NCBI GenBank assembly: GCA_964016885.1
Contig: OZ024741.1
Coordinates: forward strand, 376,898,001-376,962,000
Origin: Eledone cirrhosa
Taxonomy: Eukaryota
Reading direction: 5' to 3'
Length of the DNA stretch: 64,000 nt
Shown here one piece after another: positions 29,161 to 58,473 of the stretch. The position numbers and the translations under genes were made by a program. How positions within the stretch are numbered: position 1 is the stretch's first letter; each line of letters begins with the position of its first letter. The notes beneath the pieces are model-generated. The model had not been told where the DNA came from and ran no database searches. It saw only the letters and a program-made list of their open reading frames with translations.

Positions 29161-29202
29161 CTATCATTTGATAATGCATATAAATGCAGAAACCGGTAAT
29201 AG
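29161..29202 (+). ncRNA. Type I hammerhead motif, U3-A8 core variant
   Basis: ctatcat-TTGATAA-TGCAT-ataa-ATGCA-GAAA-CCGG-TA^-atag; stem I imperfect. Confidence 0.7.
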
Positions 29203-29481
29203 ACAATAATTAAATATATAAATAGATGAATAAATGCCATTGTTAAATATAAATAAATCAACTAATACCTTAACACTTCCCACAAAGTAAAACATTTCGT
29301 TTTAATAATTTTCTAACCCAGAAAAGAGAGAGAGAGACAAAAAAAGGAAAAAAAAAAGTTTTTTCTTCATAATAATCGTCTCTTTCTACCTGTTTTCATA
29401 TATATATATATATATATATATATATATATATATATATATATATATATGTGAGAAAAACCACAGACCCTCCATCTCAACTCA

Positions 29482-29519
29482 CCTTTTGAAAAGCAGAAGA
29501 ACTGCGAAACCGGTAAAGG
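29482..29519 (+). ncRNA. Type I hammerhead motif, U3-A8 core variant
   Basis: CCTT-TTGAAAA-GCAG-aagaa-CTGC-GAAA-CCGG-TA^-AAGG, inside a ~210-bp island between (TA)n tracts. Confidence 0.82.
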
Positions 29520-29732
29520 AACCAAATAAATATATATATTTAAAAAAAAAATAAGACTCCAGTTGCATTTTCGATTTCATCTCTTTTTCTTTATACTTTC
29601 ACTCGTGTAGGACACCTCGGTTATTTTTCATTTTGTAAAAAAAACCTCACTTTCTAATATATATATATATATATATTTCGTTTCTGAATTTGTTTAGCAA
29701 GATTCTTTATCTGAAATCGAGTGTTGAAACCG

Positions 29733-54250: not shown

Positions 54251-55540
54251 TGGAAGGGAGAGAGAGAGAGATAGCCGGAAGGGTAGGGAAAAGGTTAGAG
54301 AGGGACAGAGAATGGAGAGAGAGAGATAAGTCCAGTGAAAAATTTAAGGAGCGATTTAGAGGGAAAGAGAGAGAGAGAGCTTGTGCGAGAGAGAAAGAAC
54401 ACATAGAAAGAAGGGAGAGACAGAAGATAGGAGCGAGAGAGATAGCGGGAAGAGTGGGGAGAAAGGTTAGAGAGAAAGAGAGAGAGAGAGAGAGAGAGAG
54501 AGAGAGAGAGAGAGAGAGAGAGAGAGAGAGAGAGAGGGGGGATCCTGCGATCTAGAGAGAGATAGAGAGAAATAAATAAAGAAGGAGAGATGTAGGAGAG
54601 AGACAGAAGAGAGAGAAAAAGAAAGAAGGAGACATACAGAGACAGCGTGAGAAATAGCAATCTAGAGAGAGAGATAGAGGGAGAGAAAGAAAGAAGGATA
54701 CCGACAGAGACTGCGTGAAAAATAACAATGCAGAGAGAAAGATAGATAGAAAGAGAAAGAAAGAAGAATAGCGACAGAGACAGCATGAAAAATAACAGAG
54801 TGGACCGGTCAAAGAAACTATAAATATTAATACTAATATCGTTCGAAAGGAATATTTCGCGATTAAAACACCAAAACAAAGTGAAAATAAATGATATCAA
54901 CATGAAATATAAAAGGAGACAGAATAAATAAAATAAAAATAAAATAAAATAAATTTAAAATAAATTAAATTAATGAAACCCAAATAAGTAAAATATATAG
55001 AATCGCGAAGAATTATATAAGTTGATTTTAAATGTAGGTATCGTTTGTTTACAAATATAATTAACGAATGAACCTTATATAATATCAATATATCAAAAAC
55101 AACAGCAAATATACATGCTCACCGAGTCAAAAATAAAAATAAATTATATTAAATAACGTTACTAAAAATAAAACAAAATAATATAAAATTATAATTACGT
55201 TACTTAACTAGCTTTCATTATTCTGAATGGTAAACAAAGAAAGCACGTGTGTGTGTCTCTCGGTTTTAGAAGAATATCACACATTTAAAATAAACCCATT
55301 TAAAACGCTAAGATACGTAAAATAATTCCGTTAAATTAGAGATACTTATCTTTTACAGAGAATTTTGTTAACTATCTGAAAGTTAGCACAATAAATCTTG
55401 CCAATTTCTCTCGATTTAACATTTCAAATCCCGCGGTCAGGAAAGCATATCCGTGACAACAAGTTGCCAAGTCTGTATATATATATATATATATATATAT
55501 ATATATATATATATATATATATATATATATATATATATAT

Positions 55541-55882
55541 ATATTAAAATACAAATATTAATAAAATAGATGTTCTTTTTATCAATTACATTTTATTATA
55601 CATATTTCGGATGTACAACAGTACGTCCTCACCAGACAAAATAAAATGATACATGACATACCCTGAGATGTTAAATGGTTAAGATTTAATCATCTGATGA
55701 GGACGTACTGTTGTACATCTGAAATATGTATAATAAAATGTAATTGACAAAAAGAACATCTATTTTATTAATATTTGTATTTTAATATTAATAACTCTGG
55801 AAAATTATTTTCCATAGAGTCCTTCCGATCTACTTTAAAACTCATTTTTCGATATACTCATTGAATATTGTTTAACTATTTA
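55541..55882 (+). mobile_element. Mini PLE-end element in (TA)n: 96-bp inverted arms, each with a hammerhead
   Basis: Arms 55541-55636/55693-55788; plus CTGATGA-GGACGTAC-tgtt-GTACATCT-GAAA-TATGTA-TA; minus ATTTTGT-CTGGTGA-..-GAAA-TATGTA-TA-ATAAAAT. Confidence 0.85.
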
Positions 55883-56472
55883 ATATATATATATATATAT
55901 ATATATATATATATATATATATATATATATATATATATATATATATATATGTGTGTGTGTGTGTGTGTATATATATATATATATATATATATACGTACAT
56001 ATATGTATATAAATATATGTATATATATAAATACATATGTATATATATATATGTGTATATATATATATAAACACATATATGTATATATATATATGTATAT
56101 ATATATATATACACATACATGCTTATATATATATACATACATGTATATATATATATATATATATATATATATACATACATGTATATATATATATATATAT
56201 ATATACATACATGTATATATATATATACATACATACATGTATATATATATATATATATATATATATATATATATATATACATATATGTATATATATATAT
56301 ATATACTTACAGTATTTACCTATCGAGAGAGAGAAAAAAGGGGAAGATAGGTGATACATATATTTATCTGCCAAGTAGCGTATGCCAAAGGGGCTCGATA
56401 CTAGTGCCGGCAGTATTAAATATTCGAAGTGTTAATATTTAGTGGGCTAGAGAGTTAGCAGAGCGTAAGCAC

Positions 56473-58473
56473 GTGGGAAAGTAATAAATCGGAGAATAAA
56501 CCGTTAAAACATGTTTATTTAAAACTGCACCTACGTACGTTTCGCCCAGTTGGGCTTCTCAAGGGCATAAATAATCAAAAGTGTTCCTTACATTGCTCGG
56601 AAAGAGTTTTGGGGGTTAAATCCACGTCAAGGTTCATTGCTCGCAAAAATAGCTTGTTTTGATTTTGCAGCAGGTCAAGGGAGGTAACTCTGGCCGGTGT
56701 TAGGGCAGTCTTTCCCGGACAACTTTTTTTTATCCGCTACGAGATGAGGTTACAACCTTACCATTGTCGATACGCATGAAATCAACGCTTATTTTGAGAG
56801 TTTACGGATATAATAGAATAGATAACCGCACTAAAGAGCACGACCCCGGCGACGGTGACCACTGTAGATTACTCGAACTATTCTCCTATTACAAAACCAA
56901 CAAAGGTGACGGCCTACTACCAACGCCTTCCAACCAACATCTTCCTGTACATAAACATGGAAGAGGTAGGAAGAGTGCACCGGAGCATAAAGTGAAAGGG
57001 GCACCGAACGGGCGGCTGCGCATTAACACACATAAGAGCAGTCACCTAAATGGAACCACACGCAGCAAACGTACAAGGACACGTAATCGTCACCGCAACG
57101 TCCTATTGTTCCCCCCCTACTCCCGGAGTGTAGCCTCCAACATACTCCGGATGTTCTTCGAAGCCTTAGAGAAGAACTTCCCGCCCAACCATAGGTATAG
57201 AACAATTCCTAATAGGAACAATATAAATATATCCTTCTCTACTACTCCTAACCTAGCAGACATCATAGGAACAACGAACCACAGTAAGATCACCGAGACA
57301 CAGCACCTCGACTCAGACGCCCCCAAACCTGACAATAACTATATCGGCCTTAACAACTCCCTGGCAGCATCCAATAGTGTTGGCAACGGCATCCGCAGAC
57401 GCAACCAGCATAACCGCGAAATGACTGGGGAACATGCAGGACATGACGTGCTGAATTAAAATCGCACCACCTCGCGTGCTGTGGGTTGTAATTGTGCTAA
57501 CGACAGCTGCGGTAGCGTAGGTAACAACATAGGCAGCAACAATGATAGCCTTACCGTGGGAAATGGACGGAACCGCGGCAGAAATTGGAACTGCCGCGAC
57601 AGAGGACGCTGCCCGCTTAGAGGATACTGCTTGACTGATCGGGTTATATATAGATGCACTATAACTAACCACAATAGCGTTAAACATTATATAGGGGCTA
57701 CGTATGGCCCGTCCAAAATTAAGTTTCGAACACATCTCCACTCTTTCACAAATAAAAAACTAAGACACTCCACTTCGCTCACGGACTACATTACATCACT
57801 AAGGACTTAAACATCAGCTTCTCCACGCACTGGGATAGTATCGGCAAGGCTGCACCGTACAACTTCAAGAAGAAATGCGATCGTTGCCTAATGGAGTCTA
57901 CCACATCATAACTGCACCCCACGAGCTCATCAGCAGCAGAGCTGAAACAGCGATAAGTTGTACACATCGCTTAAAAAGATCCTTCTTCAGATGGGTTAAG
58001 GATGAGGAGTGAAACCGTGCACCCGATCTCCCTGCAACAAGTCTTAACACCCCGGGGGGCAGGCGCTGCAAAATAACTCCCAGGAAACTATCCTTGCATA
58101 CCAGATCCAGCCTCAAACGACTCAGACAAACAGATGCGGAAAAGAAAACTCTCAAAATAAGCGTTGATTACATGCGTATCGACAATGGTAAGGTTGTAAC
58201 CTCATCTCGTAGCGAATAACAAAATTTGTCCGGGAAAGACTGCACTAACACCGGCCAGAGCTAACTCCCTAGATCTGCTGCTAAATCAAAACAGGCTATT
58301 TTTGCGAGCAATGAACCTTGACGTGGATTTAACCCCAAAAGCTCTTTCCGAGCAATGTAAGGAACACTTGATTATTTATGCCCTTGAGAAGCCCAACTGG
58401 GCGAAACGTACGTAGGTGCTGTTTTAAATAAACATGTTTTAACGGTCTATTCTTCGATTTCTTACGTTCCCAC
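56473..58473 (+). mobile_element. 5'-truncated PLE (Naiad-type GIY-YIG) with ~330-bp inverted pLTR
   Basis: Arms 56473-56803/58146-58473; RNVLLFPPYS..NFPPNHRYR..NRNNINISFSTTPNL; NCR..CPLRGYCL..VIY..YIGAT..RTHLHSF. Confidence 0.9.
58380..58419 (+). ncRNA. Type I hammerhead, U3-A8 variant (identical mirror copy 56527-56566 on minus)
   Basis: GCCC-TTGAGAA-GCCC-aact-GGGC-GAAA-CGTACG-TA^-GGtGC. Confidence 0.85.

What the first reader, a model, noticed from the sequence alone, without database searches (positions are those of the whole stretch)
29161..58419. Three separate elements use a compensatory U3-A8 hammerhead core
Seen: TTGATAA (29168), TTGAAAA (29486) and TTGAGAA (58384 and its identical mirror at 56556-56562) replace CTGANGA, each with perfect stem II, GAAA, palindromic stem III and GUA. 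A decayed TTGAGAG motif lies at ~4506 in another PLE 3' UTR. Established: C3-G8 is a tertiary Watson-Crick pair, and U3-A8 double variants can retain activity. Inference: the paired change in elements with different stems I/II argues for selection on catalysis rather than decay. CUGANGA-only searches would miss these.
Basis: partly seen in the sequence, partly recalled or inferred. Interest (0 to 1): 0.75.

Follow-up and report, generated by a model that had tools for sequence, protein, structure and literature searches.

The report
Penelope hammerheads with U3-A8 core
The motifs are real hammerhead-ribozyme shapes at the ends of three abundant Penelope-type jumping-gene families, and their swapped core base pair (U-A instead of C-G) is already in print; here it arose at least twice and sits in about 25,000 copies, which suggests the predicted self-cutting fold is still under selection, although cutting has not been tested.

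Summary
All four motifs exist as described and exceed chance: a strict scan gave 6 hits in the window versus 7 in 200 simulated windows. Each lies in the 3' UTR of a Penelope-like element (PLE) encoding RT and GIY-YIG. U3-A8 is the family state, not decay: 97/100 listed copies in family A, 95/100 in the family C class, and none of 99 non-U3 family B copies has G8. Genome-wide in one stem III class: U3-A8 23,207, C3-G8 19,002, mismatched pairs 223 and 250.

Corrections:
- The three elements are two lineages. A and B are relatives (55% identical proteins); C groups with C3-G8 families (one clade rejected, p-AU 0.0004).
- 56562 and 58384 are one insertion.
- The motif at ~4506 is not a hammerhead; that element's hammerhead is a decayed C3-G8 one at 5912.

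Natural U3-A8 is published: Perreault 2011, and Cervera and de la Peña 2014 in Schistosoma PLEs. This scan noted it before in this and other genomes. Added here: the scale, at least two switches, and an untested prediction that U3 can mispair with A17. Cleavage was not shown. Verdict: new members of a known variant, modest interest.

The parts
28974..29397 (+). Family A: 5'-truncated 3' end (UTR only) of a Penelope-like element, ending at a (TA)n tract
   Evidence: 1,337 first-look candidates, best 40 at 97-98% identity apart from the window itself; relatives extend upstream into RT, Zn-finger and GIY-YIG coding sequence
29164..29203 (+). Type I hammerhead A: U3-A8 core 29168-29174, stem II 29175-29188 (opens U-A), GAAA, palindromic ACCGGT, predicted cut after A 29198
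   Evidence: 829 pattern matches, 97 of first 100 U3-A8
29398..29447 (.). (TA)n microsatellite between the A and B insertions (likely shared target)
   Evidence: family A copies end in (TA)n
29448..29657 (+). Family B: very short 3' end of a related, very young PLE family
   Evidence: 11,498 exact matches to a 28-nt piece; RT plus GIY-YIG upstream in relatives, open frame of at least 576 aa in 5 of 20 loci
29482..29519 (+). Type I hammerhead B: stem I CCTT/AAGG, U3-A8 core 29486-29492, stem II GCAG/CTGC, ACCGGT, predicted cut after A 29515
   Evidence: all 99 non-U3 copies keep A8
56473..58473 (+). Family C: one 5'-truncated PLE insertion with a broken linker/endonuclease frame, flanked by an inverted copy of its own 3' end (56473-56803 vs 58146-58473)
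58380..58419 (+). Type I hammerhead C: U3-A8 core 58384-58390, stem II GCCC/GGGC, palindromic ACGTACGT, predicted cut after A 58414
   Evidence: 2,456 matches in this stem III class, 95 of first 100 U3-A8
56527..56566 (-). Mirror copy of hammerhead C in the inverted arm of the same insertion
4506..4535 (+). TTGAGAG stretch in the 3' UTR of another PLE (family K): not a hammerhead
   Evidence: same text in 14 relatives, no valid stem III or stem I
5912..5968 (+). The real, decayed hammerhead of family K; C3-G8 type (window copy has G5C)
   Evidence: intact in 9 of 14 relatives

Best explanation
These are type I hammerhead motifs in the 3' ends of three protein-coding Penelope-like retrotransposon families whose founders carry a U3-A8 instead of a C3-G8 core pair; the swap happened at least twice and likely keeps the core able to cut, predicted to work as a dimer formed through the palindromic stem III. 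Shown: the motifs, their link to RT/GIY-YIG frames, the family-level U3-A8 state, and non-monophyly of the U3-A8 families. Inferred: two ribozymes in a tandem PLE transcript pair through ACCGGU or ACGUACGU and exchange stem I arms to cut after GUA, probably slowly and perhaps with help from the PLE protein. Selection acted on active founder elements. The window's copies are truncated or inverted, likely dead on arrival, and differ from their families only by neutral drift.
For: Excess over chance. Family state: A 97/100, C class 95/100, B 29/30 TTGAAAA with the odd copy still U3-A8 and 0 of 99 non-U3 copies with G8. Genome-wide counts for the CSSG stem III class, with reversed-pattern controls: U3-A8 23,207 (158), C3-G8 19,002 (310), C3-A8 223 (71), U3-G8 250 (110). 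Random 1 Mb: 26 strict hits, 22 C3-G8 and 4 U3-A8, none of the other 14 combinations; reversed control 2. A, B and a further family D have proteins 54-57% identical and unalignable 3' UTRs, yet keep TTGANAA..GAAACCGGTH with different stems II. C-type subfamilies down to about 62% protein identity keep it too. One clade of U3-A8 families is rejected on the linker/endonuclease tree (p-AU 0.0038) and the RT tree (p-AU 0.0004). Cofolding two copies of B or C gives the double-hammerhead layout, 7.5 kcal/mol below two monomers. Print: U3-A8 covaries in nature and was active in vitro (PMC3088659 passage, citing Przybilski and Hammann 2007, not held); PLE hammerheads cleave weakly as dimers (PMC4209133); a PLE hammerhead cleaved only with its protein (PMC11167929 passage).
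Against: No cleavage or transcription was shown. Copy counts are not independent events; the phylogenetic evidence is two switches. No peak of 5' junctions at the predicted cut in family B (8 at the cut versus 6-7 at each of the four positions just upstream, hand count among the first 100 of 477 matches). Family A has a weak stem I, a non-canonical or unpaired 10.1-11.1 position, and its cofold lacks stem I. About 87% of the U3-A8/CSSG class has A17, and U3-A17 closes in the B and C cofolds, like the C3-G17 trap proposed in PMC3884650. Hammerhead mutants did not impair PLE insertion in vitro (PMC11167929), and Naiad PLEs proliferate without canonical hammerheads (PMC8557442).
Confidence: 0.72

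Rival explanations
1. The motif is conserved for a non-catalytic role (RNA dimerisation through the palindrome, or a fold bound by the PLE protein), and the U3-A8 forms cut little or not at all.
For: No cut-site junction peak in B. A17 can pair with U3. Family A departs from the consensus at 10.1-11.1. Cleavage was dispensable for insertion in vitro (PMC11167929).
Against: The 3-8 pair is a feature of the catalytically active fold (PMC3884650 passage) and stays complementary in every family seen. No G17 family was found: one search gave 5 A, 1 U, 1 G among 7, and G17 copies are scattered mutants.
Confidence: 0.2
2. U3-A8 is inert sequence that arose by C>T and G>A drift in a few founder elements of an AT-rich genome and hitchhiked during amplification.
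For: Both changes are common transitions towards A/T; the counts are dominated by a few young families (B alone 11,498).
Against: The core, GAAA and palindrome persist across families at 54-57% protein identity with unalignable UTRs. Two separate lineages reached the same paired state and no family stopped at a single change; the one apparent C3-A8 family is a chance match inside a coding region.
Confidence: 0.06
3. The motifs are canonical C3-G8 hammerheads that decayed after insertion in this window.
For: The window holds canonical and decayed C3-G8 motifs of other families.
Against: Families A, B and C are U3-A8 in 95-99% of copies examined and contain no C3-G8 member among those listed.
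Confidence: 0.01

Closest known systems
U3-A8 minimal hammerheads of Schistosoma mansoni Cercyon PLEs (Cervera and de la Peña 2014, PMC4209133; read parts 1-2 of 4 and passages of supplement file 2)
   Same: U3-A8 in place of C3-G8, type I, in PLE terminal repeats, palindromic stem III region, mostly solitary truncated copies; the supplement lists two UUGANAA families
   Different: About 1,300 hits there versus about 25,000 here. These motifs have a 4- or 6-nt palindromic insert rather than the 2-nt minimal form, mostly lack the extra base after A9, mostly cut at GUA, and occur in two separate PLE lineages of one genome.
Natural U3-A8 hammerheads of Perreault et al. 2011 (PMC3088659, passages)
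   Same: Same compensatory pair, reported as natural covariation and as active in vitro in earlier work
   Different: Reported there for several examples; no PLE context in the passages seen
Atypical PLE hammerheads with small palindromic helix III and short helix I (Drosophila virilis Penelope, shrimp, mosquito; PMC4209133)
   Same: Short or bulged stem I, palindromic stem III, predicted dimer requirement
   Different: Those have C3-G8
Canonical endonuclease-bearing PLEs, Neptune and Nematis clades (Craig et al. 2021, PMC8557442, passages)
   Same: RT then Zn-finger-like linker then C-terminal GIY-YIG, 5' truncation, inverted 5' copy, short tail, (TA)n targets, 3' hammerhead
   Different: Clade names for A/B/D (Neptune-like) and C (Nematis-like) rest on recalled motifs; no reference proteins were in the trees

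Membership tests
Type I hammerhead ribozyme | Core N3-UGAN-N8-A, GAAA, UH with a Watson-Crick 3-8 pair | tested here: met
   U3-A8 at all four sites
Type I hammerhead ribozyme | Three helices, open at stem I | tested here: met
   B: 4+4 bp; C and A: bulged stem I; stem III only 1-2 bp as a monomer
Type I hammerhead ribozyme | G10.1-C11.1 next to the core | tested here: inconclusive
   met in B and C; not met in A (U-A in 22, U.U in 78 of 100 listed)
Type I hammerhead ribozyme | Match to an Rfam hammerhead model | tested here: not met
   none among the 150 listed of 173 matches at E<=1; the 23 lowest were not shown, and the C3-G8 motifs of the window were not listed either
Type I hammerhead ribozyme | Site-specific self-cleavage | not testable with these tools
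   indirect junction test negative for B, inconclusive for C
PLE-associated dimeric hammerheads | Palindromic stem III allowing a double-hammerhead fold | tested here: met
   cofold gives intermolecular stems III and I for B and C; only stem III for A
Penelope-like elements (EN+) | RT followed by C-terminal GIY-YIG in one frame, upstream of the ribozyme on the same strand | tested here: met
   Pfam RVT_1 and GIY-YIG in family B locus L246; A and C by translation and tblastn
Penelope-like elements (EN+) | 5' truncation, inverted pLTR, tail, microsatellite targets | tested here: met
Neptune / Nematis clades | Placement with reference RTs | not tested
   no reference sequences used; Zn-finger-like linker present
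Non-LTR retrozymes | Non-coding tandem arrays of short hammerhead-bearing units | tested here: not met
   A, B and C are ends of coding PLEs and dispersed

The most novel reading that the evidence does not exclude
Two PLE lineages in one genome independently moved to U3-A8 while keeping GUA at the cut site, so about 20,000 copies carry a built-in U3-A17 off-state that only dimerisation or the element's own protein releases: a naturally evolved, protein-gated hammerhead in a recently active, intact family (B).
Probability: 0.2. Interest if true: 0.6.

Novelty: new member of a known kind. Interest (0 to 1): 0.28.

Why it matters
It shows that a CUGANGA-only search would miss over half of one large hammerhead class in this genome. 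It also supplies natural, replicated support for the 3-8 tertiary pair. Family B (99% identical copies, open RT-endonuclease frames) is a convenient system for the open question of what PLE hammerheads do in vivo, and for asking whether U3 with A17 slows cleavage as C3 with G17 does.

Tried and rejected
Rfam scan: only microsatellite-driven miRNA-type hits among the 150 listed.

A and B as a linked heterodimer 318 nt apart: rejected. Only 1 decayed B motif lies in 29 other family A loci, and the crossed stem I arms do not pair beyond 1 bp.

Motif at 4506: rejected.

An apparent C3-A8 family (about 10 of the first 100): lies in a zinc-knuckle-like coding stretch, read by eye from the two loci fetched, so a chance match.

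G17 family permitted by U3: not found.

C3-G8 sister family with ACCGGT: most copies have GAAC in place of GAAA and no endonuclease upstream was found; left out of the trees.

'Fossil cut marks' (lead from e1-8643110), counted by hand. Family B is flat. Family C has about 11 independent junctions at the cut versus about 2 per upstream position, but about 10 two bases downstream, so no sharp peak. One search's filter excluded (TA)n and fold-back junctions. for family A was one base out of register and uninformative.

The DNA search for family B returned nothing because common words are skipped. R-scape was not available.

Not held: Lünse 2017, Przybilski and Hammann 2007, Nelson and Uhlenbeck 2008, Seehafer 2011; they may hold U3-A8 kinetics or U3-A17 data. 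Paper searches found no U3-A17 discussion, which is weak evidence of absence.

Full report
Observation. The four motifs are present at the stated places. A descriptor that leaves positions 3 and 8 free found 6 strict hits in the window: U3-A8 at 29168, 29486, 58384 and 56562(-), and C3-G8 at 6952 and 62699(-). Two hundred order-3 Markov simulations of the window gave 7 hits in all. Rfam listed no hammerhead among the 150 matches shown of 173. The motifs at 56562 and 58384 are arms of one inverted repeat, 93.7% identical, so they count as one insertion.

What carries them. The window lies in G000, a 3.0-Gb genome. Site 29168 is in a 424-nt fragment of family A. Its relatives are variably 5'-truncated, end in (TA)n, and extend upstream into an RT, Zn-finger-like linker and GIY-YIG frame that ends some 500-570 nt before the ribozyme. 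Site 29486 is the end of family B, with 11,498 exact matches to a 28-nt piece. Its endonuclease end is 99% identical among the best 40 copies, 5 of 20 loci have an open frame of at least 576 aa, and Pfam finds RVT_1 and GIY-YIG in one of them. Site 58384 is the 3' end of family C, which has a different type of endonuclease region. Truncation, inverted 5' copies, tails and (TA)n targets match the description of Penelope-like elements in PMC8557442 (passages). A and B are neighbours by chance: only 1 of 29 other A loci holds a (decayed) B motif, and their stem I arms cannot cross-pair.

Family state. Best-hit samples gave 40 of 40 TTGAGAA for C and 34 of 36 TTGATAA for A, the other two still U3-A8; these samples lean towards the query. 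Patterns that leave 3 and 8 open avoid that. Family A: 829 matches, first 100 listed = 97 U3-A8, 1 C3-A8, 1 A3-A8, 1 U3-U8. CGTACG class: 2,456 matches (control 22), first 100 = 95 U3-A8, 3 C3-A8, 2 C3-G8 of an unrelated family. Family B: 99 copies lack U3 and all 99 keep A8. For the CSSG stem III class, with no stem check, the counts (reversed-pattern control) were U3-A8 23,207 (158), C3-G8 19,002 (310), C3-A8 223 (71), U3-G8 250 (110). The listed mismatch hits are mostly single mutants of the U3-A8 families; one apparent C3-A8 family lies in a coding stretch. In 100 evenly spaced 10-kb stretches, 26 strict hits split into 22 C3-G8 (11 in one tandem array) and 4 U3-A8, with 2 in the reversed control. 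These counts reflect amplification of a few founders and are not independent events.

How many switches. A, B and a further U3-A8 family D have proteins 54-57% identical and 3' UTRs that share only simple repeats, yet keep the same core and ACCGGT. They most likely inherited it once. Family C's RT is 45-49% identical to a C3-G8 family and 22-24% to B. Both trees reject one clade for the U3-A8 families: linker/endonuclease, 11 rows, p-AU 0.0038; RT, 12 rows, 4 under half filled, p-AU 0.0004. Families whose ribozyme could not be tied to a protein were left out, and two rows without a detected ribozyme were in the first tree only. So there were at least two switches, not three; exchange of 3' ends between elements cannot be excluded. 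Clade names (Neptune-like, Nematis-like) are recalled, not tested.

The 4506 motif. Fourteen relatives carry essentially the same text, so it has not decayed from a ribozyme. Nine of the 14 have a canonical C3-G8 hammerhead about 1.3 kb further 3' on the same strand, and the window has its decayed copy at 5912. This part of the finding is wrong.

Mechanism. As monomers A and B can close only 1 bp of stem III and C only 2. Cofolding two copies of B or C yields intermolecular stems III and I, 7.5 kcal/mol below two monomers; A forms only stem III. This fits the dimer model for PLE hammerheads (PMC4209133, parts 1-2 of 4; PMC6765202 passages). I infer slow cleavage after GUA in tandem transcripts of active founders, possibly protein-assisted as in an Anolis PLE, where cleavage was also dispensable for insertion in vitro (PMC11167929 passages). 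Two features argue for caution. First, 2,952 U3-A8/CCGG motifs have a base other than A at 17, so about 87% of the class has A17, and U3-A17 pairs in the B and C cofolds. This mirrors the C3-G17 trap proposed in PMC3884650 (passages). Second, family A opens stem II with U-A or U.U (22 and 78 of 100). A hand count of 5' junctions showed no peak at the cut in B (8 versus 6-7 at upstream neighbours, first 100 of 477) and an unclear cluster in C (about 11 at the cut, about 10 two bases downstream, about 2 per upstream position). Cleavage is therefore not shown.

Against what is known. Perreault et al. 2011 reported natural U3-A8 covariation and cited in vitro activity (PMC3088659 passage). Cervera and de la Peña 2014 reported U3-A8 in Schistosoma mansoni Cercyon PLEs, about 1,300 hits, and their supplement lists two such families. 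I read part 1 of 5 of bioRxiv 10.64898/2026.07.22.740005 for retrozymes. Four relevant papers were not held. Earlier notes of this scan hold the same words 85 times in at least 21 genomes; these are unchecked and not support.

Verdict. The motifs are real and family-level, and probably maintained by selection on the hammerhead fold, but they are a published variant of a known system. What is added is scale (about 25,000 motifs in two stem III classes), at least two switches in one genome, a young intact family for experiments, and the testable U3-A17 prediction. Novelty: new member of a known kind. Interest 0.28.

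Noticed in passing
window 6952(+), 31557(+) with mirror 29925(-), 55694(+), 62063(+), 62699(-): Further C3-G8 hammerheads of other repeat families; the window is dense in PLE ends.
   Followed up: partly
L139, L192-L220 (e.g. G000:C1:1239857-1244284): A 310-bp tandem array with a C3-G8 hammerhead in every unit, often with an inversion in the middle; retrozyme-like; most of the first 100 listed C3-G8/CSSG hits.
   Followed up: no
L276-L300: A family whose hammerhead mostly reads GAAC in place of GAAA (C at 15.1) in 22 of 23 copies matched; the two inter-convert among subfamilies.
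   Followed up: partly
window 29448; L061-L090: Many family B copies start, or fold back, about 40-45 nt upstream of the ribozyme core, suggesting a preferred 5' boundary such as a transcription start or splice site.
   Followed up: no
L223, L310-L312; L227-L230; L304; L302-L303: More U3-A8 families: D (bulged long stem II, C17), an older relative with A17 or U17, a 7-copy family, and a CGTACG-type family with U17.
   Followed up: partly
window 29733-31748: A C3-G8 PLE (family E) inserted as an inverted pair right after family B; three PLE families are stacked in one (TA)n-rich stretch.
   Followed up: partly
window 21649-22242(-), 27047-27808(+), 41754-42779(+), 52925-53848(-): Helitron helicase-like fragment, two RT fragments and an endonuclease-like fragment of other mobile elements.
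   Followed up: no
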